DNA from: Amoebophrya sp. A120
Taxonomy: Eukaryota > Protista > Dinoflagellata
Length of the DNA stretch: 64,000 nucleotides
Reading direction: 5' to 3'
Assembly (NCBI GenBank): GCA_905178155.1
Contig: CAJINV010000011.1
Span: 2,437,331 to 2,501,330 of the forward strand
Positions 1 through 58,277 of this stretch are shown in pieces. Every line of letters starts with the position of its first letter. Position 1 is the first letter of the stretch. Position numbers and translations under genes: made by a program. The notes under the pieces were generated by a model that saw only the letters and a list, made by a program, of their open reading frames with translations, had not been told where the DNA came from and made no database searches.

Positions 1-3000
1 AGCGTTTTAGTACCAGTTCCTATGAAAATTCCGACTGCAGCTGCAGCAGAACATGTAGTTACCGGTCAAGCGCAACGAACAGGACAGCGCGGGGACGGGA
101 TGTGCAAGAACGTGGAGATCGTGCATGATGAACTACTATGCATTGCAAATATGTCTGGGTCTGGAAGATTGTAACTTGTAATGCGTATTTCAGAACACAG
201 AAAAGTCTCGCATGCATACGTAGCAAAGGCTCCCACTTTTTGTCTGCAAAATAGGGGCTTGTCATGCGGATTCGGCATTGCGGAAGGTTCTCGAAACCTG
301 TGATGCTAGAGCTTCCATGCCAGACCTTCTGTGTCATGCAAAAACAGCATGGCTCTTCCAGACCCAGACATTTTTGCATTTGATAACTACAACCGTCGCA
401 GGACGTGGTCACCAGGACTGCAGCGACGACCAACCAAAATGCGGAACTTTCCACCGGTCATGACAGCATACTGCTATCTAGCAGACCAGAGCAACAGAAT
501 GTCCTTCGGCAACAGAATGTTTCCTCGGCGACAGTAGATCCGCAGAAACTTATAGTACAACAGCCGGCTCCGGTTGTGGAGCCTGAGCGATCAGACGTGC
601 CAGCGCAAGTGATGTGGATGGGAACTACAACCGGCGCAACTGGTGAAGACGACTGTCCGTATGTTTCCTCCACACCAGTGAACAACAGCAGCACTGCTCC
701 CGATAGCTTCGCCGCTGGTTCTACTTGCACGACCAGGACCAAGAACACCAGCATGTTTGATGACACAGCAACATCAACAACAGGAGCACGAACAACGACC
801 GGAGCTGCTGGTGTTGCGCAGCACGCAGCTGTTAACAAGCAGGACTTACTGTACCGGGACTTCGTCGTGGACCAGTCGCTGCACCTGCGGAAGCACCACC
901 AGAACTACACCGCGTCCCACCTCCTGCACGCGGACGACAACAGCACAACGGCAGACGGCAGCAAGGACGCGTTGTCGGACGACGAGACCTCGGCCATGAC
1001 TTTGGATATGGACCAGAGCAGCCCGCGGACCCGCGCCAGCTTCTACCGGGGGGCGCGCAGCGCCCAGATGGCGCGCGGGGTCGGAGGCGCGTCCAGCACC
1101 AGCAGTCGCACCAGCAGCAGCCGGGGAAACAGCGTCATGTTTCACCGAGCGGATCATACCACCGATCATCGAGCTGTCTTTGCGCCGTCAAGGTATGCAA
1201 GTTTTTAAATACCTGAATATACTATGTATCATTTTATTTCACACTTGTACTTATTCTTACATACGACACCTCTACGATCCGGGATCATCCTCTCTCCACG
1301 CCTCGACCTTGGTCCGCGGGCGACGCAGTTAGAGTTTTAGGATTTAGCATATTTCGGGTTCCTATTTTGATCTTCTAGTGATACACGACCACACAATCAG
1401 ATCTATTTTCGCTCCCAACGGCGCTGCAGCGTTCGCACCGGCGAACTTTGACAAGACCAATTCGACGATGTCCTCTTCCACCCAGCAGGCGTTACTGCTG
1501 TCCAAGCGGCGCCAGCAGCAGGGCAAGAAGAACTACGTGGACAAGCGCAAGTTTGCCTCGCGCATCGAGTCCACCGTCCGCGACAGCCAATTTGCCGAGG
1601 ATTTGGATTCGAGCTCGCTGGACATGCGACGACAAGAGCAGGTGATCAACGACTTCATCCTGGAGAAGACCACGAGCGGAGATGAGGAGGAAAATGTCCT
1701 CTACGCAGCCGAGGATTTGATGGACTGCGAGCGACAAGAACTTTTAGGAGGTGCCCGACAAACAGCGTTAGTTGTACCGGGGTCGACCACCATGATGACC
1801 AACAGCGCGACCACAGGAGCTGCAGGTGGAACAAATGACAGAACCAGCCCGGTGGGAACGAGAACCATATCAAGCGCTGCTCCTGCTCAGTCTTCTCCTG
1901 GCTCCTCCGCGCAGCGACCAGCCGACGCCGCGTTCGACCAGCCGACGGGGCGGCTGTGTCGCGCGGCGACCACCGGCGCAAATAGTAACCACGCGAGTGC
2001 GGGAGGCGAGGGCGTCCGACTGCTCTCCTCCGTGGAGGACCGACTGCGAGGCGGGTTGCAATCCCGCGACGCGGCGAACCTGGACCACATTCGCGCGAAC
2101 CTGTGCACGCCCCGAGTGCTGGCCGCCATGGCCAAGCGCGACGAAGTACGGGAGCATCTGTACACGCAGCAGCAAATGAAAAATCTGGTGGCAGCTTCTT
2201 CTAGTAGTTGTACAACATCGTCAAGCAAAGCAGAAAACAGTACACTGCACAACACCTCCGAGGACTTGCTCTTTTCTTCCGCTGCATCCAATGTTCATCA
2301 TGCCGAAGCGATGGACGATGATCTCTTTGACGAGGACAAGAGCTTCAAGACCGCAGACAACCGCAGTAGCACGCCGCCGTCCTGTGTGGGCAGTAGTGGA
2401 GGTAATATGAGCACCCGGAAGTTACTATTTTCCTCCGCGACGTCTCTGAAGAGCAATTCCGCTTCGAAACCCCCCGGGGGCCGTGCAACGACTTTCAGCT
2501 GCGGGACAACCACCGCCTCGACCGCCTCCGGCCGCGCTTCGAGCAGCAGCTGTTCCACCGCCTCCGAAGTGCGCTCGGTAGACAACGACAGCACCAGCGG
2601 AGGCGTATTAAGGCATCAGCATACTATGCCGCACAACCTCTTCGGCGGTTCATCTCGCGAGCACCACGATCATATGACTGTACTTGCACAACACCAACAT
2701 CACCGGACGTCGAACCTGTTTAACAACAGCGGTGCTTTCGGTAGTGGAACATGTGGTGCAACTACTTCCGGGTCGTCGTCTTTTATCCACGACGAGCAAT
2801 TTGACAGTGGCGTGCAGTATAGCAAGAGCTGGAGCAGCGGCACCAAGACGCAGCAACTACGAAATGCAGGAGGCGATTACGCCCTGCACCCGGTCTCGGA
2901 GACGTCTTCCGAAGGCGGGGGCGGGGGGATGGGCTGCAGTCTCCGACGCACGATCAGCAGCACGGTGTCGGAAGCCCGCAGGAGCGGCAGCGGTCATTGG

Positions 3001-3423
3001 CAACAAGCAGACTTGTGGAGCGGTGCGGGAGCGGGTGCTGGACCACAGGCGGGTGGCAGAACGAAGAAGCCGGACTCCTGCACGTCCACAGTGTTCGGCA
3101 ACACCGAACAAGACTTGCAACCAAGTTCCGCTTGTTCCTACACGACAATGAAAACCGGTCTGAAGAGCAGCGAGGACCACTGCTACCCAGAAGTAGAGTG
3201 GGAGACTTCTCTCGTCCGATCTTCGGTGCACAGTGGCGGCAGTTGTTCCTCCGGCGAAACCTTTCTCTTCGGCGAGGAATGTGGTACAGACCATCTGCCA
3301 AGATCAACATCAGCGGGCCAAGCGACGTATGGCACTAGAGACGCGCAAGAAGTAGATCATCAACTGCCTCATGAAACTTTTCTATGGGAGAAACCAGATC
3401 CTAGTATCGCTTTGTCAAGATAA
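1..3423 (+). CDS. 5'-truncated, low-complexity Ser/Thr/Gly-rich protein of unknown function (exons <1-136, 391-1192, 1401-3423)
   Basis: Frame 1 is open from base 1. Removing the introner joins it to ORF 405-1208 (DEL|QPSQDVVTR). GT-AG intron 1193-1400 joins ORF 1378-3423 in phase. Confidence 0.75.
137..385 (+). mobile_element. Introner family A (subfamily A1), non-canonical intron
   Basis: TIR tatgcattgcaaatatgtctgggtctggaag / cttccagacccagacatttttgcatttgata; 5-bp DR actac on both sides; excision restores frame. Confidence 0.93.
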
Positions 3424-9351: not shown

Positions 9352-9366
9352 ATTGGTATTAGAAAG

Positions 9367-10546
9367 ATGGCCGCCCGGGTAGTTTTATTTGATGATGTTC
9401 TTCAACATCCTGGGACGATGCTTTCTTCCTTCTTTTCCACTGGAAATGTGGACGGTGACGAGACCAACAGCCACGCAGCTGCGACCTCCTGGCGGTTCTT
9501 CCATGATAGGGAACGCGCGGATGCATGTCCTTCGGTCGCTGCAACCAGAACTTCTTTTTCCAGTAAACTAACACATCTGGAAGGGCCCCCGGGGAAGATT
9601 ACATCGCGAGGCAGCCACCCAGGAAGAAATTGCAGTTTTTTCCACGACTCCCACTCGAATTTGCACCTGCAGAGCCAAGAAGATTTTCTCGAAACCGAAA
9701 ACCAAGAATCTCACAACATGAACAGCTCCCGTCCAGTCTGGAAAAACTCGAGAAACAGGATCAACAAATACTCAGCTGCGACCAACACATCCACCCCCAC
9801 GTCTTTCCTTTTCGGCGCGATTAAATCCGGAGCGGCCGCCATCGCGGGGAAAATTCCAAACCCGATGGACTACACGATCGGAAAAAAATATGGGAGTGTC
9901 AGAATCGAAATTGACAAAATTGAAAAATTTGTGATGCACAAAATCAATGTCAGTCGGAGCCTCAGTTTTCAAGTGGTGCGCGACAAATTTCTGGAGCACC
10001 GAAATCCAGTCTGTCATGCTGTTTGGGGAAAGAAGGCTGGGCTGCTCCTGTCATGCTACTCTGGCAGCACATTGCATACCCCTAAACAGGCTTACAATCG
10101 CCCTCATATGCCTGCTCACCAATACAGGCCTTCAGTGCTCTACATTTTATGCATCACAAGTTTTTCGATTTTGTCGATTTCGATCCCGACACATCCATAA
10201 AAAACGTAAACGCGACCTGATGTGCGACTGCCAGGAGGCGATCAAGCAGCACGACGAAGAGGCGAAGATGCACGAGAACCCGCGGGACGAGCCGCTGCCG
10301 CGAACGGAGGCGCAGGTCGCGGCCAATGCGCGGAAAGATCTGGAGGAACAACTGGAAACGGAGGTGATTTTCACCACCCACGCGAAACGGTACGCGGACG
10401 CCCTGCAGCAACAATTGCAAGAAATCCTCACAACCGCGCAGCAAGTACACAGCGACGCGCAGCGGAGTCTGGAGCAGAGCGCGGCGGCGTTAGCGAACGC
10501 GCAGGAGTATCGGAGAGTGAATGGGGTCGGCGTGGAAAAGGAATGA
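9367..10546 (+). CDS. Protein of unknown function with C-terminal coiled coil (exons 9367-9888, 10205-10546; start uncertain)
   Basis: Removing introner D joins ORF 9367 to the frame of ORF 9947 (YTIGKK|RKRDLMCDCQEAIK); LEEQLET resembles LEKQLET in 7782-8183. Confidence 0.7.
9889..10199. mobile_element. Introner family D (311 bp)
   Basis: About 55-bp imperfect TIR tatgggagtgtcagaatcgaaattgacaaaattgaaaaatttgtgatgca / tgcatcacaagtttttcgattttgtcgatttcgatcccgacacatccata; DR aaaaa; frame restored. Confidence 0.88.
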
Positions 10547-11485: not shown

Positions 11486-14400
11486 ATGCAAGAGAAATTT
11501 CATCCGGGCATCATGCCGCGCAACACATTTCCGGTGGAGATGAAGATGTTCGAGCCGCTGCTCGCAGCGCTGCACGAACTCAGCTGCCACAATCCGATCC
11601 ACGTCGACGCTTTCTTGATGGGTACTAATATGGATGTTTTTTTTGTACTTGTCTACTTTGTATGTAGTGAGGTCACCGAACGGTTCTAACCAGGGAGTTT
11701 TTTTGACAGCTCCCGTGAAAAACGACCGGCAGTTTGCAAGCGGCCGGAAGTGTTTTTGCACATAAAAAATTTGCAATTATCAAGCGGCCGGGGCGTTTGC
11801 GGCAAAAAAGCCCGAGCGGATTCTATCGATTCGCACTGAATAAAACGACGCAGGGGAGCCGGCAAAAGGGGCGCCCTTCTGAGGCGCCCACCGCCTTAGT
11901 TTCTGGCGATTTGGGGCGCCCAAAAAGGGGCGCGCAAAAAACGCGCCCAAAATTAGAACAGCGAAACAGCATGGCACGGCCGCGATTTCGGAGCATTTTG
12001 GGCGGCCGCGAAAGCGGCCGCCTTTTCGCCGGTTTCAGAGCCTGGGAAGCTTTGCAAAAAGCGCCGGCGTTAGTAATAAAAACGCGAAAAAGAAAAAGCC
12101 TCCCAGACGCGCAAAGCCAATCCGCATGCTATGGGCCCGATTTTTCTTCGCTTTTTGGGCGCCCTCCGTGGCACCCGGATCGGCCCCATAGCATGGGGGC
12201 TGGCCTTCGGTAAGGAATTTCGGGAATTTGCCAAAATTTGCGATGTTTATCAAGCGGCCGCCATACCGTGCGGCCTAACGTTACTCACGGCGGTATGGCG
12301 GGCCCAGAAAAAGCAAAGTCGCGGCCAAGGTGATGGGTGGCCGGCAAGAAAACGCCCACGACCTCACTACCTCCGCCCCGGCGGCTATATTTGGTAATAG
12401 TTATTGTTATTCGCATTGATTCGTCATCATCTCAGATGAGTAAAGGAAATTTTCGAGCGAAAAATAACGTTCGGTCCGACATCGCAAATATTAAACAGGT
12501 TTGTGGAACCCATCGGAGCGGCAAGAGCTGTTCCAGTGGTTGAAGATGATACTGGAAACGTCGGAAATTCCGTCCTCGGTCTTTTTCAAGACTTATGCAT
12601 TGCAAATATGTCTGGGTCTGGAAAGTTGGAACTTGTGATGCTACCTTTGGATTCTGAAAAAATCTGTATTGCGCGACCAGCAAGAGGAGCCCAGTTTGTG
12701 CTCCACGGGGAGGGCATTTGTCATGCGGAATAGGCATCAGGAAGCCCGCTAAAAATCTGTCATGCTAAAGCATATATCACAGAAATTATGGCTCATGCAA
12801 AACGTGCATGACAAAGACAAAGTTGCACTCATCCAGACCCAGACATATTTGCATTTGATAAGACTACCCAGATGTTCGACCGCTTTCTGGAGCACACCGT
12901 ACTGAACAGCAGCGGTCTCGGCCACAGTACATTGCTGCAGAACAACGGATCCTCTTCGCTGCAAGGAGGACACAATGCCGGGGGGTTCGTGAACAAAGCC
13001 GGGAAGGTGATCTGCCCGTCGCCCATGTCCGCAAGCGTGTCCACAGTGGCCAGCTCGCCGAAAACGCCGGACCAGGCGCAAGGTACGAGGATTTGTTGAT
13101 AAAGTGGCTTTCTCAAGCTGCATGATGATGTTTTCTGAAGTATGTACGATTTTTGCATCGAAGAGTTCAAGTTCTCATTCAAAGGAAGGTCCTTCACCTT
13201 CTTCTACCCACAAAAAATAAATACGACACTTACCAGGCACACCGTCTCCGCTGAACCCTTCGAACATCTTATCCGCGGTGCACCAGCAGCAATCGGAGCT
13301 CTACGGCAGGCAGATTCCCACCGTCCTGGAAGATCTGCACCAGGATATCGCGACCCAGCTCGGCTCCCAGTTCATTGTCCAGGACTTGCCAAATCCGATC
13401 GGCGAGGGCGGCGAGCTGACGCCGCAGCACGTGGCCAACCCGGTCTTCAACTCGAACTGGTCGCAGACCATGACGCACCGGGCGTTAGGCCTTGCGTGCA
13501 CCAGTCTGGTGATGAAGCTGGACTTCCGGAAGCACTACAGCAAGCACTACGACTCGCTGATTCAAGCGGCCGTGCCGTATTTGTTTCCGAGTAACAACAG
13601 CAACAGCGGTAGCGGGGGAGCAGCAGGTGGGAATACGAATAGCAGCAGTGGGAACAACAATGCGAACAACAACGCGTCTTCCGCCAACCGGTCGAATTCT
13701 GCTGGAAACAGTTACGAAATGAACACCAGTTCTTCCGGCGTCGGTGGCCCGGACTACAATTCTGCGTCCAGCGTATCCGCGGAGCAGTATGGAGGGATCG
13801 ACAACGTCGGGAATTACGTGACCACCGCCCCGGTGCCGGAAATTCGCTACGCGTTCAGCTGCGCGTCGGCGAAAGCCTTCATCCAGAGTTTGGAGTGGCC
13901 CATCATCAAATACCTGCGGTTCCGGCTGTCCGTACCCTGCTTGATCGACTTCTTGGACTACTTCGACACACAGTGCCAGGTATATCCAAACTTCCCTTTG
14001 GGATTTTACTTTCTATATAGAAACAGCGAAGTAGAGAATCTCCCTGCTTTTTTGTGTTAGTCCGTGGTTTTGCGATGGGGATGCATGGTGATTGTAGATT
14101 GAAATTCATACAAGACTATGTATCAATATCAAATTGAAATTTACGCATGAGAATGAGCAAAACGAAAGTTCTCTTTCACTGAACAACTCCATAGATCCGG
14201 TCGAAAAAGTCGTATGCGGTGGATGTGATTCTGTACCACCCGGAGCTCCTCTACGGCAACAAGATGACGAGCATCGCGCTCGCCATTTGGTTTCTGTCCC
14301 ACAAGAATCAGGACTACGTGCACGCGATTCTGCAGAAAATGCAGACGTTTGACTCCTTCGCCCCCTCCAAGCGGCTCGAGGAGAAGCGAAGACTGATGCA

Positions 14401-22059: not shown

Positions 22060-25000
22060 ATGCGGGCCGGCAGCAAGCAGTCGCAGACGACTACGCTGGC
22101 GAGCACGAAGCCAGAGGATGAGGAGGACGATATTCTGAGTAAAAACGTCCCCACCCCAGAGTCAAGATGGGGATTTCGCAACACAAACCTAGAAGTTTTG
22201 GTGGTCACGCATGACAAATGTCAGTCCGTACTGTAGTGCAGATTAGCGTGGACAGCCGCATTACAAATCCATCTGCTTATCCTGTTTACAGCATTACAAG
22301 TTTTAGAACACGATTGGAAATGTCTACCATGGGTATGCGCATCACAAATGTTCCTGTCATTGGAAATCAGCATTACAACTCTGGGGTGGTGACGTTTTTA
22401 CACAGGATAGACGAAGAGCCAGAAGAAGAGGAGGAGGAGAACCAGGATGATTACTCCGATGCGAGTACCGAGACTGCCACCGTCGCGTCCGTGCACACCG
22501 GGTTCCGTTACTGGGTTATCGAATGCAAAAATGTCTGGGTCTGGAACAAAGCAACTTGTCATGCTACATCTGAATCATTTAAAAATCTGTGTTGCATGAA
22601 TACCAAAAGCTGTCCACTTTTGACCTAATCGAGAGGCAGTTTCTCATGTAGGATAGGCATGATAGAACTCATCTCACAGAATCTGTCATGCTATCTCCTA
22701 CATACCAGACCTTATGGGTCATGGAAAACCTGCATGACAAGTCTGGCACTCTTCCAGACGCAGACACTTTTGCAGTTGATATGGGTGACGGACGGTGAGA
22801 TTGTGCGCAGCCGGGGGTTCACCATCTTTATCAACGTGACGATCGCAATATGCATTGCAAAAGTATCGTACTACTATAAATTGCATCACAAATTTTTTCA
22901 AGAAGAAAAATGGAATTTGTAATGCTGATTTACCTAAAAAGGGACATTTGTCATGCATGATAGCAATTACTACGAGTACGATACTTTTGCACAGGATACG
23001 CAATCAACGCGGTGGTGATCGGATTGGAAACCGATCTCAGTTGCCACGTATACTGTGATTTTTAGGCACAGAATTGCCATATTGCAGGATTCGTTCGATT
23101 TGAATTTGTTCGCAAACAAGCTTCAGCTAGAGTTGTGTCAGGGCTTTTATTAATTTGTGATGTCATACGTACTAGAACTAGTGCATGACAAACCTACTGC
23201 AAGAAAATAAACAGTCCACCACAAATTGCGAACCGTCGGAGTACGTGATATGGAACGTTTTCGAGTACGTGTTTCTCATCATCTTCTTGGGAGAAATGAT
23301 TCTGAAAATCATTGCCTTCTCATGGCCAGGCTACTGGGCAGACGACTGGAACAAGTATTTTTTAACACGTTTTTTTCTTTCCGATTCATAAGCACGAGTG
23401 TTTTACTTTTAGCACGTGCACGAGCACCCAAATTTATGATTCGTGACGCAAGAGGACCCGCACAGTTGTCATGAACGAAAGTCATCCCAGGAACGTCTTG
23501 TGTGTGTCAAGCTTTCTTCATTTACCACGACAGGTTTGATTTTTTCCTGATCATGATGGCTATTCTGGACACCTGGGTGATGGCCATCGTCGGCGGGGGC
23601 GGAGGTGGTCTGAAGATTTTCTCCGTGCTCCGTGTCTTGCGTGCCTTCCGATTAGTCAGGCTGGTCAAGCTGCTGCGTCAGTTCAAAGAGCTGTACCTTT
23701 TGGTGAACGGTATGGTGGAAGCCTGTAAAACGCTCGTCTGGGTCGCCTGTCTGCTGCTCATCATCCTGTATTAATTTTTTTGTTTGATGTTTCTCGCTCG
23801 ATCGTGGTTGCTTTCGATTCGGATCTTCTTGCAGTACTCGTCAGAACCATAAAAGAGCTCTTTCATCTTCAAAAGGTGTTGGGGCTGTTGTGGTTACATG
23901 AAATTGATGTCTCAATAAACATACCCCCATCCCCTAGGTACGTGATCGGCATCATCTTCACGATTTTGATCGGCCAGAACACGGACCCGGCGCTGCGGTA
24001 CCTCGGTACTTGGAGCAAGGAGGATTACTGGGGATCGGTCCCAAAGTCGATGTACACTCTGTTCCAAGTGACGACGGGGGATTCCTGGGGTAGCAAAGTG
24101 GCGAGACCAATTATCAAGGAATACCCGGCCTACACGATCTTTTTCCTGGTTTTCATCTTCCTGATCTCCTTCGGTCTGATGAACATCGTGCTCGGGGTGA
24201 TTTGCGAGAACGCCATCTACGCCGCCAGTAAAAACACGGAGAACATGCAGAAGATCGTGCTGCGACACCAGCAACTGGTGATCAACTCCATAACGGCAAT
24301 ATTCGAAGCCGCAGACACGGACGGGAGTGGCGAGCTATCAAGAGAAGAATTCGACGAGGCGCTTAGCAAGAAGACGGTATAGTACGGGTGGTTCATCGTG
24401 TTGATGTTTCTATATGCATATGCCTTTCAGGGTCGAAACTCACATGTCGGTAATCTCGAGGCCCGAAAGAAAAAGAAATGTGAGTGTAGTTGCAATAGTA
24501 CAAAGCACTCTGAGATAACAGCGACTTGCATGAAATGCAATATCAAAATCCATCTCAGGTGAAGCAAAAGTTAGAATTAATCGACGTCCCGCCAGAGGAC
24601 CTCCGCATGCTCTTTGACCTCCTCGACGCCGACGGCAGCTATCAAATGCAAAAGTGTCTGGGTCCGGAAGGCTGCGAACTTGTGATGCGTGTTGCGCATC
24701 CTACAAAAATCTGTATTGCATGGCGTGCAAAAGCTGTCCATTTCTGGCCATGCTGAGAGAGCATTTCTCATGCAGAATAGGCATCACCAAGGGGCTGCAG
24801 AACCTGTGATGCTATGCCCTGCATTGCAGACTTGGCGGAGCTTGGAAAAACTGCAAAACAAAACGCGGAATCTTCCAGACCCAGACATTTTTGCATTTGA
24901 TAGCAGCGGCGAGATCACGATAGACGAGTTCCGAAAAGGCTGTCTGAAACTCCAGGGTACGGCGAAGTCGAAAGAAATGATAAAACTCGCGGTACACGTG

Positions 25001-26062
25001 TCGACATACAACAGCAACTTGGACGACATGCAGGACGCTATGGAAGAACAAAACCGAACCTTGAAGAAGATTTACAACAGGTAAAAGTTTATATACCTAG
25101 AAATTTTTGGTCGAGAGTTTGTCATGCATCTTGGTACGAACCGATTCCAGTCGCATTCAGTATAACAGTGTGTCATGGACGAGATGCTCAGGTATTCGTT
25201 TTGCAAACATCACCAAGACTGAAAAATGAAAATGTTAACTTGTTAAACAAAATCAGGCTTTACGACCTGGAGAAGCAGTATTTCCGGCACGATGCCAGCA
25301 AGAAGCCAAAGCGACACGAGGAGGAGGAGGCGGAGGCCCGCGTATCAAATGCAAAAATGTCATGGTCTGGAAGAATGCAAACTTGTGATGCGCATTTTAC
25401 AACCCAGAAAAATCTCTCATGCACAGGCAGCAAAAGCTGGCCACTTTCTGTCACCAGGATGGGGCATTTGTCATGCGGATTCGGCATTGCGGAAGCTTCT
25501 CGAAACCTGTGATGCTAGAGCTTCCATGGCAGGCCTTCTGTGTCATGCAAAAGCAGCATGACTCTTCCAGACCCAGACATTTTTGCATTTGATACCGTGC
25601 GACCAGTGGCAAGCCCGTGAGCATCCTCGGCGCCGTGGCTGCGGCGGGCAGGCACATTGCACAGAGAAGAGGCGCCATGGAGGACGGAGAAGAGGGGGGC
25701 AAGAAGGAAGGCGAGGGGGCCGAGTACTTTTTACTTTTGCTTTTCTTTCATCAAGCCTAGCAACATGGTATGGTGTTTTTTCAAGTTGTTTGTGTAGACG
25801 GCAAATAAACAAAACCCACGATAGAAAATATACACACAAATTTTTAGAAGTAGCTCCTAATTACAGGAAAAACGGAATATAATCGAATAACAGCGGCGTC
25901 CGCAGGAGTAGCCTGGACGCGTTGAAGGGTTTCATGGGCCGCGGAAAGACAGTGAACAATCTCGACGAACATTTTGCGGAACAAGACGAGCAAAATAGTG
26001 GTGAGGGACCCGACCCCGCGGCAACCACCGACAAACCACCACCGCCGCCGGGCGGAAGGTAG
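22060..26062 (+). CDS. Single-domain (6TM) voltage-gated cation channel with two C-terminal EF-hands (start uncertain)
   Basis: Spliced motifs INAVVIGLETD (S1), WNKFDFFL (S3), LRVLRAFRLVRLVKLLR (S4), TLFQVTTGDSW (pore), DTDGSGELSREEF and DADGSGEITIDEF (EF-hands). GT-AG introns 23048-23214, 23355-23533, 23768-23937, 24377-24558, 25081-25256, 25724-25893, plus 4 introners. Confidence 0.9.
22517..22781 (+). mobile_element. Introner family A (A2)
   Basis: TIR tatcgaatgcaaaaatgtctgggtctggaa / ttccagacgcagacacttttgcagttgata; DR tgggt; gives RYWV|TDGEIV. Confidence 0.92.
22849..22998 (+). mobile_element. Introner family B (150 bp) in channel S1
   Basis: TIR tatgcattgcaaaagtatcgtact / agtacgatacttttgcacaggata; DR cgcaa; gives TIAI|NAVVIGLE. 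Confidence 0.92.
24640..24902 (+). mobile_element. Introner family A (A2) in an EF-hand loop
   Basis: TIR tatcaaatgcaaaagtgtctggg / cccagacatttttgcatttgata; DR gcagc; gives DADGS|GEITIDEF. Confidence 0.94.
25343..25594 (+). mobile_element. Introner family A (A1)
   Basis: TIR tatcaaatgcaaaaatgtc / gacatttttgcatttgata; imperfect DR ccgcg/ccgtg; frame stays open after removal. Confidence 0.9.
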
Positions 26063-29267: not shown

Positions 29268-31589
29268 ATGCTGCGACGAAAGGCAGCTGCGCGCGGGTTG
29301 TTGCTGGGATCGTGGTCCGCTTCTGTTTTCAGGGTGGGTGGCATCGGTATGAAAAGTAGAGTACACAACTTCATCCCCACGTCGTGCCCCCAGTTGCATG
29401 TTACTGATGGTTCCTTTCACAGCAAAAACAAAAGTGCCAGTAATGGTAAAGATGCAGGAGCTCCTGATGTGCTCCGTCGTGCGACAAAAGATCGCGACAA
29501 GAGGCACTTATTCTGTTATTTCGGAATTATTTTCCGGATCGCCCTGCTCCTTTCAAGCGAGCAGAGCCAAGAACAGCGAGAAAAAGTGTGACAATTCGAT
29601 ATTTATGTGCATGACGAAGGCTGAGGGGAAGTACAAAGGGAGGAAATTTTTGTGCACTCCGATAGAAGAAGCGGTGGACCACAGCACCAACTCGAACAAG
29701 GCACCTCGTCTCGTTCTTTTTGATCCAAATAAGAAGGGTCGTGATTCTATGGGTGGCAATTCCTGTCCTGTAAGGCGCTCTCAAACTCGTTAAGTACTAC
29801 ACTCTCAACTGTTGTTACATGAATTGCGATGCAAAACTAGCAAAAGTCGTGCAGGGAGGGAGCCTGATGCGTCGTGTCCCGCATAAATTTGGCACAGATT
29901 TACTTGTTCCCATGCCGTTTAATGGCGCTTCAATAATTTTTTTGTCATGCCAACTGGCGTCTTGATTGTGCGGAGGCTGATCTGGTAACCAAAGCGTGCG
30001 CAAGCGCTCGCAAGAGCGCTTTGCGCGCGGGCTTGCCCGCGCGCAAAGCGCTCTTTGCGAGATGCTCATCCATCGCAAACGCAGCGCGAAGGCTTTGCCG
30101 TTACCATATGGGAGGAACTCGGGGGTATGCAATCACTGGAAAAATCGGGCATTACGAAGTGTGTTTTGCCTTCAGAAAGCGGATCGGGCAGAATTGCTGG
30201 GAATTTTCCGGAAAGCAGCCAAAACAGCAATTGCCAAGCGGGGAAGGGGTAAAAAAGAGCATTTTTGCAGCTCCGCCCAGTCTGAATCTGAAAAAAGAGA
30301 ATGGCACTTTCGGCTGGGGCCGATGGTGTGATGCGTTTTATAGCGGAAAATGCGTCGCGTCCGGGCAGCTCCAGCCGCTTTAAAATTGAAAAAAAACGTT
30401 GAAAAAATGCAATTTTTCGCAGCATGCAAGCGGGCGAGAAAATTTACCGATTTTCTCCAGTCCCCGGAAAACGCTTGGAAATTGAAAATGACAACTTTTT
30501 CTGAAAAAGCAAAAACCGCTTAGAAATTGCCGCTCAAAAGGGGTTCGCAAAATTTTCCGCAGGCCCGTGCCACCGGGATTGGACGAGAAAAAAACAACTG
30601 TCAAGCCTGTGGAGGTGTGTCACACGGGCACGGTTTTCGACCTCTCTGAGGTCGCAAATTGGAACCCTTGCCCCGCTTGGAAAAGCCCGATCTGGGTGGC
30701 CCGAAAGGGCAGCCGGAAATGAACAGAACTGCGTTACTTTTGTAATTTGCGTATTTTTCCGGGCCAGCGTGCCCTCGTGCATAACGTTATGCACGACGGG
30801 GCGATGCTCGTTGAAAAACGCATTCTTTTGCGCGCCCTTGCTTCCTGGTTAGAGGATGAGAGCGCGGCCCGAAGCGGGCTGCAGTGTTGGACCGCGGCCC
30901 TTCGCACTGTAGCGGTAGCCTTCGCACTGTAGCGGTAGCCCCTTCGGATGCGCGGTAGCCTTCGCACTGACTGGGGTGGTTCGCACGCTTTTGGTTACCA
31001 ATATCGCCCTCCGGGCGCGACCTTAATAGGTTTTTTTGCACGACAAATTGTGATGCATTAACAGTTGTTGACTACAGTGTAGTAACCTTTGAGACCACTG
31101 TCATATCCTGGTTGCTGGGATTGTAAGTATGATTCTGGATGCGGACCGAAAACGACGTGCAAGGAGCTGTCTCTGCACATGAAGGAATCGAAGACACCGG
31201 AGGATTTGGGGATGAGCCATGACCAGTGGGCGGAATCACTGTGTGAACGGGCCGGCGAAGGCTTACAATACATGCACTACTCCGACACGAAGGTCCTGAT
31301 CAACGAGAACAACCCGGATTGGATGTTGAATGACAAGACCCTCGCGGAAAAATGCTGCACGAAGCCGTTTATGGTGCTTATGCATTGCAAAAGCTATGTA
31401 TCCAATACAACTATCAGTGATCGCATCTTCTTTGATGTCACAAATTTCGCCAGAAGGGGAAATGAAAGTTAACTTTACAAAAAAGTAGATTTGTCCTGCA
31501 TGATTAGTACGAATACGATACTTTTGCAGTGGATAGTACCCGCCGCCCGATCCACCTCTGCGTCCAGTACCTCCTTTTTGCAAGCATAA
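29268..31589 (+). CDS. Cysteine-rich protein of unknown function; 5' exon structure uncertain, last exons about 31089-31378 and 31541-31589
   Basis: Cys-rich ORF 31089 continues after introner removal to ...TSFLQA*. Upstream Cys-containing ORF has a donor near 29770; linkage of the upstream exons is inferred. Confidence 0.45.
29978..31029 (+). mobile_element. Helitron2/Helentron-like element, family H1 copy 2
   Basis: Same termini as 8181-9351 (tgatctggtaacc ... gggcgcgaccttaatag); different internal segment with tandem ccttcgcactgtagcggtag at about 30899-30969. Confidence 0.7.
31379..31535 (+). mobile_element. Introner family B, diverged
   Basis: tatgcattgcaaaag / tacgatacttttgcagtggata; degenerate DR gtgct/gtacc. 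Confidence 0.8.
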
Positions 31590-32971: not shown

Positions 32972-35871
32972 ATGGAGCGCTACCTCCGCGCCCCGCCTGT
33001 GACGAAGTCCGGCGGTGTGAAGGGGCGGTATACCCAAGCGAGCGGCTACGAAATAAGCGATCATCACTCTAAGGAAATAGGACACATAACACCGACGGGA
33101 GGAGGGCTAAATGACGGCGTTTCCTCCGCGGACACCGCTTCGAATTCCACCTCTTCAACTGCCGCGTCAACCGCTAGCAAGAAGGTATTTTCCGGTGCGG
33201 CGCGGAGCCCCGACGTCGTGTATGGCGCTCGCGGGGCTAATGCTCGCGGTGGGACAACATCAAGCAAAGAAACAAGCGTTACGCAACTCTCCTCCAAGGG
33301 AAGTGCGATAGTACAGTCCGCCGCTTTGATGTCCTCGCGGGACTTGCAGAAGTGGAAGCCGGTTATCGACCCGAAAATCCTGATCATGCTGGTGAACATG
33401 GTGGACTCCGCCGACATGTCTCTCATTGCCTCCTGCATGAAGGCGTTCGAGCGAGATTTCGGGTTTCGCCCGAGCGATTTGGGGATCTTGGGTCTCTGTC
33501 AGGCCGCGAGCTTTTCCTTGACCTTACCTATTTGGGGCGCGGCGTTGCCGAAGTACGGGTGTCGGACGCTGTTGTCACTCGCCTGCTGGGTCTGGATGAT
33601 CACCACTTTCTTAACGCCGATGGGACACACGCTCGGTATCTATGTAGTAATGAAGATCAACATCTGTTCTTGTTCACATGATTAATATTTTAGTGTAGAA
33701 GTTTGGACGAGGTGGTCGTTCTTTCAGTGTAGTCCTTCGATCTTGGCAGCTATAGTTTTCTGAGGAAGGGGACCCAGCTGAAAAAAAAAACAACAAAACA
33801 GCGATGCAAGCCTGCCTGCGTATCCTGAACGGCGCGGCGCTGAGCGGGGTGATGCCGGTTTCCCAAGCGGTGCTCGCCGACATTGTGGACGAAGACCAGC
33901 GGGGCCAGGCTTTTGGCTGGGTCGGCGCGTTGCACTCGGTTGCAAAAGTGATTGTCACGTACTACGTCCTGGCGATGGGGGAAAACTGGGCGCAGTGCTT
34001 CTACCTGGTTGGTTTCGCCACCTTCTTGCTAATCATCCTGCTTTACACGCAACTACCCGACTCGTACGGGAAGCAAACGCAGATGGTGGACAGTGTCACC
34101 GGGGAACCCATCAGTTTCGGCGAGCAGGCGATCCGGGCCGCGAAACGAATTTTGCAGATACCCTCCTTCATGGTTTTAGTTGCGCAGGGGGTGGTTGGCG
34201 GAACGCCCTGGCAGGCGATGTCGTTTCTGAACATGTACTGGCTGACCCTCGGGTTCTCCAACACGGAAGCGGCGACCATCGCGGCCGTGATTAATTCCGG
34301 CGGGATCCTGGGTTGCCTGTTGGGCGGCACCATGGGCGATTTTTTTGCCCGGAATGTTTCCTCTGACCGGGGGCGCGTCATGGTTGCGCAGTTGTCGGTA
34401 TTATTAGGGATTCCCTGCTGGTGCGCGATGCTGAGCAGCACGCTGGTGGACGGCAGTTCTGTGTTCATGGCCTGCCTGTGTGGCTTTTCCTTCTACCTGC
34501 TCGCCACGTGGTGCAGTTTCGCCGCCAACCGGCCGATCTGCACGGAATTGGTGTCCTCCTCCGCCGACCGGGCGCAGATCGTGGGTTATTGGGAGGAAAA
34601 ATCCCCCCTCCCCATATCGAAAAGGTATGTTTCCGAAAATTTGTGTTGCTGATTTGTGACCACAGATCAGGTTTGTCTTGTAGGAAGACAAGTGCAGAGG
34701 CATCCGCCCAATTGTGGAAGCGATTTGGCGTGCTGTTGGTCCTAGAGCAGGGTAGCCGTTTGCAATGCTGAACAACTAGACCTGAGCGCTCCAACCTAGG
34801 CTGCGGATCTGGCCGCAGTGCCTTACTGCAAGACAGGTCGGATTTGTGTACGCAAATCAGCATCAGAAATTTTCATTTTGATATCGGGAGGGGGGATTTT
34901 TCGTTTTGATATGGGCTTGTGGGTGCTCATCGAGGGCACGTTTGGTGCTTTGTTCGGTGCTATCAAGTGCAAAAATGTCTGGGTCTGGAAGGATGTAACC
35001 TGTGATGCGCATTTCAGAACACGCAAAAATCTCTCATGCATGGGTAGCAAAAGCTGCCCACTTTCTGTCACCAAAATGGGGGATTTGTCATGCGGGTTCG
35101 GCATTGCGGAAGCTTCTCGAAACCTGTGATGCTAGAGCTTCCATGCCAGACCTTCCGTGTCATGCAGAAACAGCATGACTCTTCCAGACCCAGACATTTT
35201 TACATTTGATAGGTGCGCCGGTTGTTGGGTTTGTGTCGGAGGCGTTTGGCTACCGTTTGTCGAAAGACGTCCTCTATCAAATGCAAATATGTCTGGGTCT
35301 GGCAGAATGCAGATTTCTGTCATGCTGTTTTTGCATGACACAGAAGGTCTGTCATGGATGCTCTAGCATCACAGATTTTGAGAACTTTTCGCAATTCCCA
35401 ATCCGCATGACAAATCCTCCTTTTTGGTGACAGGAAGTTGGCACCTTTTGCTGCCTATGCATGAGAGATTTGTGTGTGTTGTGAAATTAATGCGCGTCAC
35501 AAATTCGCGTCCTTCCAGACCCAGACATATTTGCAATGCATATTCTTGCATCCGGCCACAGTGCGACTGCCGCGGAGACGAGCGCGTACAACCAGCAGGA
35601 AAAGAAGAACGCGGCAGCATTATCCTCCGCATTGACAGGATTAGGCGTGATCTGCTGGACCTTGTGCTTACTGATCTGGTCGGTGATGTACCTCACTTTT
35701 CCGGCGGATCGCGCGAACGCGAGGAGGCTAGAGCAGGAAGAGAGGCGGCGGCAGGAGGAGGAGCTGGGCATAGAGGGCGACGAGCTCGGGATGCCATTAG
35801 ATTTCGACACCGGGACGGGAGATGAAGACGCGCACGAAACCAGGCCTCTGGGGGCGGGGAATAGGCACTGA
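32972..35871 (+). CDS. Major facilitator superfamily transporter (spinster-like)
   Basis: Multiple TM helices; VDSADMSLI, LADIVDEDQRGQAFG, VAQGVVGGTPW. GT-AG intron 33636-33801 plus 3 introners; spliced 3' part reads IVGLWVLIEGTFGALFGAPVVGFVSEAFGY. Confidence 0.88.
34587..34911. mobile_element. Introner family C (325 bp)
   Basis: Long imperfect TIR tattgggaggaaaaatcccccctccccatatc / gatatcgggaggggggatttttcgttttgata; DR tgggt/tgggc; frame restored. Confidence 0.88.
34961..35211 (+). mobile_element. Introner family A (A1)
   Basis: TIRs as family A; DR ggtgc; gives FGA|PVVG. Confidence 0.93.
35275..35542 (-). mobile_element. Introner family A (A1), inverted relative to the other copies
   Basis: Interior is the reverse complement of 34961-35211 (e.g. 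ctctagcatcacag vs ctgtgatgctagag); DR tcctc/ttctt; gives KDVL|ASGHS. Confidence 0.9.
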
Positions 35872-36298: not shown

Positions 36299-38395
36299 AT
36301 GCGCCGGAGCGGAGCTGGTGCTCCCAGGAGATCTTTCAACTCGGCAACGAGGCTCCTGCTGTCGCATTTGGCAGGAGCACTGCTCCGCGCGGCCTTATTT
36401 CCCAGTCCGATTTTCTTTTCCCTCTCCGCCACTGCCGTCCCAGTTCATCCGCCCACCGGCGCGAGCGACACACAGCACTCCGGCGCGACGAGCTCCACCA
36501 GTATTCATGTTATCGATCTTAAGGGCGTTTCCGGGAAAAGGTTTTCCGGCGACCGAATCCGGACGAGCAACGTGCCTTTGAATTTTCAGGGCGTCCGGCA
36601 ATCCGACCTGCGGCACGAGCGCGAACACAAGAATTGCGCCAAATGGATCGTGGTCACGAGCATTTTCCCGCCCTCCGACGCGGTGCGAAAGCTGGGCGAG
36701 ATGACGAAGAAGGGCTGGTGCTTCGTCGTTGTTGCGGACCAGAACGGGCCAAAAGATTACGACGACGTGGAAGGGGTTGTTTATCTCACCGTGGAGCAGC
36801 AGAAGCGATTGCACTACCACATTATCGACATCCTCCCATGGCGCCACTTCGGGCGGAAAAACATCGGTTTCCTGTACGCGATCGAGCACGGTGCGCAAGT
36901 GATCTACGACACGGACGATGATAACAGGATAAAGGAACTAGACATACCCATCTGGGGATCTTCATCTTCGGCAGGGGCTTCGACTGTTGCAACATCACAA
37001 ACACCAACTACAGAATCCTCCTCTAGTACTTTGGGCGCCAAAGAGTACGTCCCGTTGATGACGTACACGCCGGACCCCGCGTCTCGCCGGGGGAATTCCG
37101 CGGAGGAGTACTACACCAACGTGATTGAAACCTTCCAAAAGACCGGCGGTGCCGCGGGGAGGGTCGTAAACACGTACTTGGACTTCCAGCCGAGCTGCGG
37201 TTTAAGGATTTGGCCGCGCGGATACCCGCTGGACCACATCAACGACGTGCACGATTCGATTCTGATCCCGTATAATTCATCCATGAGCTCGACAAGTAGC
37301 TCTTCTCCTGGTCCGCAAGCTACTCGTGCCGCCGGTAGTACAGCTACAAGAAACAAACCCCCTGCCGTCCAACAGTTCCTCGCGGACGAGGACCCGGATG
37401 TGGATGCCATATACCGGCTGACGGGAAAACTCCCGTGCCGGTTCGAGGAGAAAAATAAGGGGATCGTCGTCCCGAAGGGCAAGTTCACACCCTACAACGC
37501 GCAGTGTGTGGTAAATCTGCAACCCGCGTTCTGGGCGTTGCTGTTACCGGTGACGTATGCATTGCAAAAATATCGCACTAGTGTGAACTGCATTACAAAT
37601 TCATGACAGATGGATATGCAATTTGTCATGCGGTTTTACCTTGGAATGGAGATTTGTCATGCATGATTGCGATTACTACGAGTACGAGCACGATACTTTT
37701 GCAATGCATATCACGGTGAACGGTCGCGTGTCCGATATTTGGCGGAGCTACATCGCGCAGAAATTGCTCTGGGATATCGACGAGGTATCTATCAAATGAG
37801 AGACAATTTCATCCTCAAGAACATTGATTTGTCATGCTGGCTGCCCGAAGTATCAACGACAACGACTCTTAGTCGTCCGCATGCAATACAAATCCCGTAA
37901 AAAAAAACAGCACGTCGCGTTCATGCCCGCCCATGTCGTCCACGACCGGGTCTTCCACGATTACCTGAAGGATTTCCAATCCGAATCGGATCTCTACCTC
38001 AAATCCGCCGCGCTAGTGAAATATGCATTGCAAAAGTATCGTACTAGTATAAATTGCATTGCAAATTTTGGCAAGAAGAGAAGTGGAATTTGTAATGCTG
38101 TTTTACCTTAGGAAGAGGATTTGTCATGCATATTAGCAATTAGTGCGAGTGCGATACTTTTGCACAGGATATGAAATTCCTGTCCCAGTGGACGAGCGCC
38201 GCGCCGACGCTCGTGGAACGGATAGAGCAGCTGTGGTCGGAGTTGTACGAGCGAGGTTTCATCGAAGTTACCGATTTAAAACTGGCCCAGGCGTGGATCC
38301 GGGATTTGCTCGCGCTGGGGTACCGTTTTCCGGATTTACAAATCCCGAAGATCCTGTCGCGCGAACACCTCGCGGCGCACCATGCGGAATTGTAG
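36299..38395 (+). CDS. STELLO-like (DUF288) putative glycosyltransferase
   Basis: WIVVTSI, RKNIGFLYAIEHGAQVIYDTDDDN, WPRGYPL, DPDVDAIYRLT, spliced LLPVTVNGRVSDIWRSY; GT-AG intron 37785-37910 and 2 introners. Confidence 0.88.
37556..37710 (+). mobile_element. Introner family B
   Basis: TIR tatgcattgcaaaaatatcg / cgatacttttgcaatgcata; DR tgacg/tcacg. Confidence 0.92.
38022..38171 (+). mobile_element. Introner family B
   Basis: TIR tatgcattgcaaaagtatcg / cgatacttttgcacaggata; DR tgaaa; gives LVK|FLSQW. Confidence 0.93.
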
Positions 38396-55800: not shown

Positions 55801-56726
55801 TGCTGCGCATCGACGTCGTGCTTCATCTCGTGTTTCCGGGATGCGAATTGGCGATGTCGTCGAGTAACCACCCTAAATCTAAATGTACACACATTGATAT
55901 CGATCTCTTCACTCATGTTTCGGTTTTGTCATGTTCTGTTTCAAATTCAAACATCATGCACTGCGAATTCCATCGCTTTTGCAAAAACGATGACGTAACT
56001 ACTGCTCTCTTGTATGCCTCTTTTTCTTCTCTCACCTCAGTGAGACTGTAATCTAAATCTTGAGTAAGGGACGCCACGCGAAAGCAGATGAATGTAAAAA
56101 ATTTGCACGTCGAGAAAGTGAAGATGTAGCAGAAGAGTGATTTTTAAATGCTCTGCAGCCGCGCTGCGGCATTTGCAGCCACGCTACCAAGAGTCCTATT
56201 GATTTGAAAACTTGATGGATCAACAGCTGTTGTATCTGATGACCTCACAAATACTGTGCCTGTGATCCCTGGTGGTCTTTGCTATTCTAAATTGCGATCT
56301 GAGTTGTAGTTTAGAATTCGCAATTCTCAGAAGATCCAAGGAAGCGACGTTGTTGTGAGGCACAGGTGGGTTGAACATATGCAAAAGTTCCTCGAGGATG
56401 ATCATGAACTTAAATCTGGATCAAAATCGGTCAGTAGCCTGCGAGAAACGTGCGTTCATAAATTTGGCTCGTGTGAATGAAATGGATGCCGATGTAGGGC
56501 CAAGAGTTCTAAATCAGATCCAAGTGAAGTTCCGACACGAAAAATTTGGCCCAAAAGCGAACATGATCCACCTTATTTTATTATTTCACGCAACATTTAT
56601 GTCTGAATCTCTCTCCGGTTCTCATCAACGCCACATTTTCCAAAACTCTACTCTCAGGGAAACGAGTATTTAACTTCATTGCGAAGTAGTACAACACCTC
56701 ACAGAAACCTCTCGAAACAACACAAG

Positions 56727-58277
56727 ATGGCTATCGCTAAGAACAAGGGTCTCGCCAAGGCCGGCAAGAAGGGCAACAAGAAGAAGCAGGCCGATCCCTT
56801 CCTGAAAATATCAACTGTAAAAATGTCTGGGTCTGGAAGAATCCAACTTGTCATGCTGATTTTAGATTCTAAAAAAATCTGTATTGCATGAGCAGCAAAT
56901 AGAGTCCAAGTCTTGCTACACGGAAAGAGCATTTGTCATGCGGTATAGGCATCAGGAAGCTCTCACAAAGTCTGTGATGCTAGGGCATGCATCACAGACA
57001 TCAGGAGTTATGCAAAATGTGCATGACAAGCCTGGCAATCTTCCAGACCCAGACATTTTTACATTTGATAGAAAAAGGTCTGGTACAACATCAAGGCTCC
57101 GACCTACTTCAACTCCAAGGCCAACAAGGTCGGCCGTACGTGTGTCACGAAGACTCAGGGTACGAAGATTGAGACCGAGGGCTTGAAGGGCCGCGTGTGC
57201 GAGTTCAACATGGCCGATGTCCAGGACGGGTCCGAGGACGGGCACAAGAAGATCAAGCTGGAGGTCCAGGAGATCCAGGGCAAGAACTGCCTCACCGACT
57301 TCCACGGTCTCAGCCTGACCAGGGATAAGATGTGCCAGATGATCAAGAAGAAGCACTCTTTGATCGAGGCCGTTGCCGACTGCAAGACTCAGGATGGTAA
57401 AAGACTTTATATTTAGATTTGTGAGTAGGGCTGCATTTTCAACGGGCAGAAATTTAGATGCGCATGGTGCGCTATTGCGGAGTGAGTGCGTCGTTTCTAC
57501 TCATTTTAGTAGTCGGTGTCATCGTCATGCGTCTTCGGACACAGAGCGAACCTATATGAAAGTGGCTTTGAATAATATTGACCCGTCTTCAAAAAAAATG
57601 AAATTTGGTATCAAACCCTAAACCACAGGCTACGTCGTTCGCATCTTCGTGATTGCCTTCACCAAGGATGTCAAGGAGCACCAGGTTAAGGTTTTCACCT
57701 ACGCCCAGTCCGCGCAGATCAAGAACATCCGTAAGAAGATGGTCCAGACCGTGCAGCAGATCGTTGCCCAGGGACAGCTCAAGGACCTGGTATACTGATT
57801 TTTGAATTCACTTTTTTATCTTCCTTCTTTTTCGGCTTTTGGGGTTTTAGGATTTAGAAGTGCACCTTATCTTGCGGTCATGTTAGAGAGACTTCTTCTG
57901 CATCTGAGCGAGCTTTGCATTTCATGTACGGAGCGACTTCTGCGAGCGACGTTTCGAGCCATAAGTTTTCCATGATGAATGACTGTGCGACGAGGGATGT
58001 GTCGTGACAAAATTTTCTATCGAAGTCACCCTTTCAAATTTCCAAAAAACAGGTCAAGTACCTCGTGATCGACAAGATTGAGGGTGACATCAAGACCGCC
58101 ACCAACCGCATCTATCCCCTGGACCCGGTGCACATCCAGAAGGTGAAGATCGTCAAGAAGCCGAAGTTGGACATCGTCAAGCTGATGGAGATCCACGACT
58201 CCAACGATGCTGGTGACGAGGGTGTCGCCGTCGACGCCACCGAGCCGGAAGAGGCCAAGAACTTGCTGGCCGCCTAA
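56727..58277 (+). CDS. RPS3A: 40S ribosomal protein eS1 (S3a) (exons 56727-56808, 57076-57396, 57629-57789, 58053-58277)
   Basis: MAIAKNKGLAKAGKKG, DPFLKKVWYNIKAP, LKGRVCE, NCLTDFHG, YAQSAQIKNIRKKM, IYPL..KVKIVKKPK; strong codon bias. Confidence 0.97.
56809..57070 (+). mobile_element. Introner family A (A2) in RPS3A
   Basis: TIR tatcaactgtaaaaatgtctggg / cccagacatttttacatttgata; DR gaaaa; gives DPFLK|KVWY. Confidence 0.94.

What the first reader, a model, noticed from the sequence alone, without database searches (positions are those of the whole stretch)
137..57070. Fourteen TIR elements act as precise non-GT-AG introns
Seen: 14 insertions (8 A, 4 B, 1 C, 1 D), each with TIRs and a 5-bp DR. 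Removing element plus one DR restores the frame in all 14. Sliding the junction through each DR gives GT-AG in only 1 of 14 and AT-AC in none. Ordinary GT-AG introns coexist in the same genes. Known: introners with inverted and direct repeats and non-canonical ends are reported in Amoebophrya, and the removal mechanism is unresolved to my knowledge. Inference: a second, hairpin-guided excision system operates, either at RNA level or as IES-like DNA elimination.
Basis: partly seen in the sequence, partly recalled or inferred. Interest (0 to 1): 0.88.

Follow-up and report, generated by a model that had tools for sequence, protein, structure and literature searches.

The report
Hairpin introns cut at fixed offset
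These are the already-described transposon-like introns of the marine parasite Amoebophrya A120: they lack normal splice signals yet are removed exactly from the messenger RNA, likely at a fixed distance from their inverted-repeat ends, by machinery that is still unidentified.

Summary
Real but known. The window encodes Amoebophrya sp. A120 genes: two spliced models equal published A120 proteins letter for letter. The 14 elements are Farhat et al. 2021's introner elements (TAT-N7-AAA ends, 5-bp repeats); I found two more. Ten of the 14 repeats are perfect, four are not. RNA contigs (one sample, four runs) skip all 7 covered TIR elements by exactly element+5 nt; DNA contigs retain them, so DNA elimination is unlikely. 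What goes beyond the paper: the four RNA-covered imperfect repeats agree on one cut register only, 1 nt before the left TIR and 4 nt after the right (N-TAT...ATA-NNNN). That puts TAT at intron +2..+4, as in the window's ordinary GTAT donors. In 94 gene-oriented copies from another assembly, G+1 and AG are not enriched and family A lies 24:24 in both orientations, so the signal likely sits in the symmetric ends. The register rests on four junctions (chance of some agreement 0.35). I favour a modified U1-less spliceosome (0.5) over a separate Euglena-like system (0.35). The scan noted similar introns on other genomes before.

The parts
137..385 (+). Family A element, 249 nt, repeat ACTAC/ACTAC
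   Evidence: ORF 986 aa with element+5 removed, <=95 aa otherwise; no RNA laid
9889..10199 (+). Family D element, 311 nt, repeat AAAAA/AAAAA; the one element without AAA at TIR 11-13
   Evidence: frame evidence marginal; no RNA laid
12594..12860 (+). Family A element, 267 nt, AGACT/AGACT
   Evidence: 1047 aa vs <=207; no RNA laid
22131..22409 (+). Family C element, 279 nt, GACGA/GACGA, in Ion_trans/EF-hand channel gene
   Evidence: model identical to A120 protein P0040
22517..22781 (+). Family A element, 265 nt, TGGGT/TGGGT
22849..22998 (+). Family B element, 150 nt, CGCAA/CGCAA
24640..24902 (+). Family A element, 263 nt, GCAGC/GCAGC
   Evidence: skipped by 268 nt in 4 of 4 RNA contig sets
25343..25594 (+). 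Family A element, 252 nt, imperfect repeat CCGCG/CCGTG; cut after repeat base 4 or 5
   Evidence: skipped by 257 nt in 4 of 4
29771..31105 (+). Extra degenerate element (TAA...ATA), 1335 nt, TCCTG/TCCTG, carrying a nested ~1.05-kb repeat
   Evidence: one contig in 1 of 4 RNA runs skips 1340 nt (depth 2.7, short side 25); anatomy; weak
31379..31535 (+). Family B element, 157 nt, imperfect repeat GTGCT/GTACC
   Evidence: no RNA junction; frame not decided
34587..34911 (+).
   Evidence: skipped by 330 nt in 4 of 4
34961..35211 (+). Family A element, 251 nt, GGTGC/GGTGC; the one that can be slid to GT-AG
   Evidence: skipped by 256 nt in 4 of 4
35275..35542 (+). Family A element in inverted orientation, 268 nt, TCCTC/TTCTT; cut after repeat base 2-4
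   Evidence: inverted by BLAST; skipped by 273 nt in 4 of 4
37556..37710 (+). Family B element, 155 nt, TGACG/TCACG; cut after repeat base 2-5; in STELLO-like gene
   Evidence: skipped by 160 nt in 4 of 4
38022..38171 (+). Family B element, 150 nt, TGAAA/TGAAA
   Evidence: skipped by 155 nt in 4 of 4
56809..57070 (+). Family A element, 262 nt, GAAAA/GAAAA, in ribosomal protein S3Ae gene
   Evidence: model identical to A120 protein P0007; junction conserved in 6 homologues
22060..26062 (+). Host gene: Ion_trans + EF-hand channel, 574 aa, 5 elements and 6 GT-AG introns
32972..35870 (+). Host gene: MFS_1 transporter, 624 aa, 3 elements and 1 GT-AG intron
36299..38395 (+). Host gene: STELLO-like (Pfam hits below cut-off), 551 aa, 2 elements and 1 GT-AG intron
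56727..58277 (+). Host gene: ribosomal protein S3Ae, 262 aa, 1 element and 2 GT-AG introns

Best explanation
The elements are short transposon-like inserts with inverted ends and a 5-bp target duplication that are removed exactly from the RNA, likely at one fixed register (1 base before the left inverted repeat, 4 bases after the right) and likely by a modified U2-type spliceosome that reads the paired ends instead of GT-AG. Shown: presence in DNA, exact removal of element+5 nt in RNA contigs for 7 covered TIR elements, intact proteins. Inferred: (a) non-autonomous DNA transposons (no transposase seen); (b) one register, N|TAT...ATA-NNNN, so four duplicated bases are kept from the left copy and one from the right; (c) the TIR's TAT stands in for donor positions +2..+4, G+1 is dispensable, and the TIR stem brings the ends together so that the 3' site is set by distance, not by AG; (d) the catalyst is the U2/U5/U6 core in a lineage where U1 was not found.
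For: RNA level: 7 of 7 TIR elements in covered genes skipped in 4 of 4 runs of one sample, next to 5 of 5 GT-AG introns; those contigs end in poly(A) and have no depth at 28068-29480. DNA contigs run into or through the elements at depth 24-33 without differences (table 8). Register: allowed cuts {4,5}, {0-4}, {2-4}, {2-5} intersect only at 4. Spliceosome link: all 14 modelled GT-AG introns begin GTA and 9 of 14 GTAT; all nine predominant non-canonical A120 motifs in Farhat's Table S4 have T at +2, and all nine A25 ones begin TT, with A25 repeats starting TTA-purine-purine; the degenerate 29771 element would begin GTAAG at this register; 83 of 89 spliceosome proteins and U2, U4, U5, U6 found, U1 not, in A120, whereas a canonical-intron Amoebophrya has U1; spliceosomal removal of TIR-derived non-canonical introns is reported for Fritillaria (review). 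End-encoded signal: strict 5-bp duplication in 144 of 177 copies, GT-AG reachable in 6 of 94, family A 24:24 in both orientations, inverted copy 35275 spliced.
Against: No lariat, branch point or spliceosome association was observed; no raw RNA reads covered the genes. G at intron +1 (30 of 94) and AG at the 3' end (8 of 94) are at background, orientation neutrality leaves no room for a strand-specific branch or pyrimidine tract, and the last ~30 nt are predicted to be paired: all awkward for a spliceosome. The register rests on four junctions from one sample; independent random cuts would share some register with probability 0.35 and exactly this one with 0.09, and only one junction (25343) excludes cuts 2-3. 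Table S4's T at +2 may partly reflect aligner tie-breaking inside the repeats (my caution, not tested). The terminal TAT/ATA pairs are not predicted to form in 3 of 15 elements, two of which (35275, 38022) are spliced exactly. The 94 outside copies have no RNA evidence and their gene strand is inferred.
Confidence: 0.5

Rival explanations
1. A separate, spliceosome-independent RNA system (structure-measuring nuclease plus ligase, as proposed for Euglena nonconventional introns) cuts at fixed distances from the TIR stem and joins the exons.
For: No preference for G+1 or AG and no orientation preference; strong predicted stems in 13 of 15; Euglena introns follow a paired-motif-plus-spacer code, N3CDG...CHGN5-6|R, and are reported to leave as circles.
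Against: The inferred cut reproduces +2..+4 of the ordinary donors, and A25's different repeat also gives T+2, A+3; no candidate enzyme is known, and none could be sought (no genome held); Farhat reports the same repeat layout in 15% of canonical A120 introns, which suggests a continuum.
Confidence: 0.35
2. RNA-level removal is real but has no single register; the cut can fall anywhere in the duplication and the agreement of four junctions is chance.
For: Probability 0.35 of some common register by chance; Farhat calls the splice sites variable relative to the hairpin (Fig. 3 legend); 13 of 27 repeat mismatches in outside copies are synonymous between the two copies in the inferred frame (counted by eye), which either-copy use would favour.
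Against: Each imperfect junction is the same in 4 of 4 runs; Table S4 motifs share T at +2; about 40% synonymous is also expected under a fixed register (my estimate).
Confidence: 0.08
3. The elements are eliminated from DNA before transcription, like ciliate IESs.
For: TIR plus duplication anatomy; removal leaves one repeat copy.
Against: DNA contigs carry the elements at single-copy depth and no empty-site joint is among the 15 listed (1024 not shown; this run may be the assembly's own source). RNA contigs hold element sequence joined to flanks of other loci while a silent stretch has no depth, as expected of unspliced precursors. To my knowledge Amoebophrya has no separate germline nucleus, so deletions would be inherited (recalled).
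Confidence: 0.03
4. The skips are reverse-transcriptase template switches across hairpins between direct repeats, and the mRNA keeps the elements.
For: Hairpin plus direct repeat is the known signature of this artefact (recalled); only cDNA-derived contigs were seen.
Against: Retention truncates every tested conserved protein, e.g. S3Ae 54 vs 262 aa; spliced models match homologues without gaps at the junctions; skips also occur at repeats with 1-2 mismatches, identically in four runs.
Confidence: 0.02

Closest known systems
Introner elements (IEs) among the non-canonical introns of Amoebophrya sp. A120 (Farhat et al. 2021, PMC7789003)
   Same: Same organism (proteins identical); repeat ends TAT + 7 nt + AAA (14 of 15 elements); 5-bp direct repeats; 150-325 nt (paper: mean 240); RNA-supported; mixed with GT-AG introns in one gene; 29,850 copies reported.
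   Different: Nothing in kind. The paper's text leaves the border position unknown and gives repeats of 3-5 nt; here the duplication is strictly 5 bp for these families, one register is inferred, and orientation neutrality is counted. Figures 3, 4 and S19-S25 were not visible and may show part of this.
Nonconventional introns of Euglena (Nomura et al. 2025, PMC12501133; review PMC11282704)
   Same: MITE-like origin proposed, inverted ends, direct repeats that blur junctions, position set by a paired motif plus spacer, coexisting GT-AG introns.
   Different: Code is N3-CDG...CHG-N5-6|R with a purine preference at the exon start; here N1-TAT...ATA-N4 with no such preference seen; circular products reported in Euglena, untested here.
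Non-canonical TIR/TSD introns of the tunicate Fritillaria borealis (via review PMC11282704; PMC13326754 passages)
   Same: Transposon-derived non-GT-AG introns said to be removed by an adapted U2-type spliceosome.
   Different: Fritillaria keeps preferred ends (AG-AC, AG-AT) and U1; A120 ends are free and U1 was not found.
Canonical introners of algae and core dinoflagellates (Gozashti et al. 2022, PMC9860276; 2025, PMC12130899)
   Same: TIR DNA transposons that make introns and lose one duplication copy on splicing.
   Different: Those carry or co-opt GY/AG sites from element or duplication; these need neither.

Membership tests
Amoebophrya A120 introner elements | Located in A120 genes | tested here: met
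   Two spliced models identical to A120 proteins P0040 and P0007
Amoebophrya A120 introner elements | Removed from transcripts with non-GT-AG ends | tested here: met
   7 of 7 covered TIR elements skipped; GT-AG possible for 1; 8 others not covered by listed RNA joints
Amoebophrya A120 introner elements | Inverted repeats starting TAT, 7 variable nt, then AAA | tested here: met
   14 of 15 at both ends; 9889 lacks the AAA
Amoebophrya A120 introner elements | Direct repeat of 3-5 nt at the boundaries | tested here: met
   5 bp, perfect in 10 of 15, 1-2 mismatches in 5
Amoebophrya A120 introner elements | Repeated families | tested here: met
   A copies 67-90%, B copies 76-87% identical over full length; C, D, E have relatives in outside loci
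MITE / non-autonomous TIR DNA transposon | TIRs, fixed-length target duplication, no coding capacity | tested here: met
   144 of 177 perfect at 5 bp, at most 17 at any other length 2-9; short, stops in most frames
MITE / non-autonomous TIR DNA transposon | Cognate transposase with the same ends | not testable with these tools
   No genome held; Farhat found no transposase in A120; superfamily not assigned
U2-type spliceosomal intron | GT/GC donor and AG acceptor | tested here: not met
   At the inferred register +1 is A5 C4 T4 G2 and the last base A5 G5 C3 T2 of 15
U2-type spliceosomal intron | Lariat intermediate and spliceosome dependence | not testable with these tools
   No raw reads on these genes
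U12-type intron | AT-AC or U12 consensus ends and minor snRNAs | tested here: not met
   AT-AC in 0 of 15 by sliding; minor snRNAs not found by Farhat
Euglenid nonconventional intron | N3CDG...CHGN5-6|R code | tested here: not met
   Ends read N-TAT...ATA-N4; works alike, not a member
Euglenid nonconventional intron | Excision as full-length circle | not testable with these tools
   Contigs only
Ciliate IES (DNA elimination) | Empty sites in somatic DNA | tested here: inconclusive
   DNA contigs retain elements; listed joints show no empty site but most rows were not shown and rare variants are dropped

The most novel reading that the evidence does not exclude
Amoebophrya A120 runs a dedicated, spliceosome-independent RNA excision system with a minimal symmetric code, N|TAT-stem-ATA-NNNN, that removes any correctly ended transposon from mRNA in either orientation regardless of flanking bases, convergent with Euglena and making coding-region insertions nearly free.
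Probability: 0.3. Interest if true: 0.85.

Novelty: already known. Interest (0 to 1): 0.42.

Why it matters
The elements themselves are published. The open question is how tens of thousands of introns without GT-AG are removed precisely. A fixed register turns that into concrete tests: it predicts every junction, the exact ends of the excised RNA (for lariat or circle searches in existing reads) and which bases to mutate. Either outcome is notable: a spliceosome indifferent to G+1, AG and orientation, or a second splicing system in an alveolate. It also gives a simple annotation rule for these genomes.

Tried and rejected
No whole genome is held, so no search for snRNAs, transposases or ligases. 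Rfam: 0 matches in the window. Element 31379 and the stretch 28068-29480 had no RNA junction or cover. A fifth register test through a non-synonymous repeat mismatch in locus L044 failed: no homologue found. The idea that the ordinary introns are decayed elements found no support: no BLAST match between 14 GT-AG introns and the elements, and the internal GT[CGA]ATGC motif is 13.9/kb in elements, 1.6/kb in GT-AG introns (4 hits), 0.4/kb elsewhere. Drift of repeats toward GT or AG was sought and not seen. A branch point in the right-end TTGAT (recalled yUnAy consensus) was considered and dropped: B, C, D ends and the inverted copy lack it. Invariance of TAT/ATA in the outside copies is not evidence, since my scan required it. 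In one search the start of 31379 was one base off; corrected. Folding energies had no shuffle control. Searches for a paper that fixes the A120 register or mechanism found none; subscription papers such as Roy et al. 2023 are outside the library and were not read.
Full report
Observation. A scan for TAT...ATA segments with inverted ends found 21 pairs with at least 20 of 30 matching bases, 10 of them flanked by a perfect 5-bp direct repeat, against none in 5 block shuffles. Families A (8 copies, 67-90% identical, 35275 inverted) and B (4 copies) are confirmed by BLAST. Sliding gives GT-AG for 34961 only and AT-AC for none.

Genes. Removing element+5 nt, with 14 ordinary GT-AG introns, gives full reading frames: an Ion_trans/EF-hand channel, an MFS_1 transporter, a STELLO-like protein (below Pfam cut-off) and ribosomal protein S3Ae, and unnamed genes. 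The channel (574 aa) and S3Ae (262 aa) models are identical to proteins annotated in Amoebophrya sp. A120, and homologues align across the junctions in conserved parts. For 137 and 12594 only ORF length speaks (strongly), for 9889 weakly, for 31379 not at all.

RNA and DNA. Four contig sets of one sample, labelled RNA by guess but spliced and ending in poly(A), were laid on 24300-38400. All 7 TIR elements in covered genes are skipped by exactly element+5 nt in 4 of 4 sets, as are 5 of 5 GT-AG introns; 31379 has no junction; the 1340-nt skip is seen in one contig of one set. A DNA contig set runs into or through the elements without differences at depth 24-33; it may be the window's own source, and only 15 of 1039 joints were listed. 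Two raw-read RNA runs did not cover the genes. Element sequence joined to flanks of other loci occurs in the RNA contigs while 28068-29480 has no depth, which fits unspliced precursors. Together this makes DNA elimination unlikely and RNA-level removal well supported.

Cut register. Perfect repeats hide the cut; imperfect ones show it. The four RNA-covered ones allow cuts after repeat base {4,5} (25343), {0-4} (34587), {2-4} (35275), {2-5} (37556): only 4 is common. The intron would be N-TAT...ATA-NNNN. Random independent cuts share some register with probability 0.35 and this one alone with 0.09, so this is suggestive. At that register TAT occupies +2..+4; the 14 ordinary introns begin GTA in 14 and GTAT in 9. 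In Farhat's Table S4 all nine predominant A120 non-canonical motifs have T at +2 and all nine A25 motifs begin TT, though aligner tie-breaking may contribute.

More copies. One motif scan of metagenome contigs returned 151 loci (about 520 stretches estimated), all 80 listed ones from one assembly, with elements at most 94% identical to the window's. Of 177 distinct elements, 144 have a perfect 5-bp duplication and 22 one mismatch; no other length from 2 to 9 exceeds 17. Six with more than 2 mismatches and 77 that could not be oriented were dropped, leaving 94 with gene strand inferred from a coding model trained on the window (16 of 16 loci with two or more calls agree). GT-AG is reachable in 6 of 94. 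G is found at the five repeat positions in 29, 26, 29, 29, 30 of 94 and AG in 7, 6, 8, 7, so neither is favoured. Of 69 assigned to a family, 34 lie as in the window and 35 inverted (family A 24:24). These copies have no RNA evidence. Folding predicts the TIR stem well in 13 of 15 window elements, partly in 31379, poorly in 38022; the terminal three pairs are unlikely in 137, 35275 and 38022.

Mechanism. The information for excision likely lies in the two symmetric ends. I put 0.5 on a modified U2-type spliceosome: donor +2..+4 is preserved in two strains with different repeats, the spliceosome core is present and U1 was not found in A120, U1 is present in a canonical-intron relative, and Fritillaria is a reported precedent. 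I put 0.35 on a separate nuclease-ligase as suggested for Euglena, because indifference to G+1, AG and orientation and a base-paired 3' end are hard for a spliceosome. Neither was tested directly.

Literature. Farhat et al. 2021 (PMC7789003: abstract, passages, sections 10, 11, 12, 25, 32, 35 and supplement passages; figures not visible) describes these elements in this strain: RNA-supported, inverted repeats TAT + 7 nt + AAA, direct repeats 3-5 nt, 29,850 copies, border position unknown, mechanism open. Henriet 2019, Guminska 2021 and Roy 2023 were seen only as citations. Seven searches showed no paper fixing the A120 register; the unseen figures may already show it in part. Three earlier scan notes describe similar introns on other genomes; none on this one.

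Verdict. The added value is a candidate splicing code and two neutrality results that sharpen a standing question. Interest 0.42.

Noticed in passing
window 29771-31105: A decayed element with a ~1.05-kb repeat nested inside still seems to be spliced (one low-depth contig); at the inferred register it starts GTAAG and ends CT, a hybrid of canonical donor and non-canonical acceptor.
   Followed up: partly
window 8181-9354 and 29978-31032: Two ~90% identical copies of a larger repeat with internal inverted repeats and palindromes, different middle parts, and no 5-bp duplication; a different mobile element type. The first sits at a stop codon between genes.
   Followed up: partly
all elements: The motif GT[CGA]ATGC recurs on either strand at near-fixed offsets (about 41, 125, 165, 200-215 in family A; 34, 70, 101 in B) also in families C and D; possibly a protein-binding site for mobilisation or splicing.
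   Followed up: partly
14 GT-AG introns, e.g. 23048-23214, 37785-37910: Ordinary introns have GTA(T) donors and A-rich acceptors (often AAACAG) without a pyrimidine tract, which may relate to the missing U1.
   Followed up: partly
window 11690-12340: An intergenic stretch with many short GC-rich inverted repeats and A/T runs, resembling a further repeat element (read by eye).
   Followed up: no
window 43929-46827 and 47621-50188: Two neighbouring genes with similar layout and shared motifs, probably diverged tandem paralogues (read by eye).
   Followed up: no
window 28200-28460 and 32750-33010: The upstream region and first codons of the MFS gene have a partial duplicate about 4.6 kb upstream (family D15), with no RNA cover over most of it.
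   Followed up: no
window 38500-56700: About 18 kb of long single-exon ORFs with no TIR element, while elements cluster in a few conserved genes; all modelled genes are on the + strand.
   Followed up: no
L001-L151: Insertion phase in 94 oriented outside copies is 47:24:23 (phase 0:1:2) at the inferred register; may be real or an effect of the frame calling.
   Followed up: no
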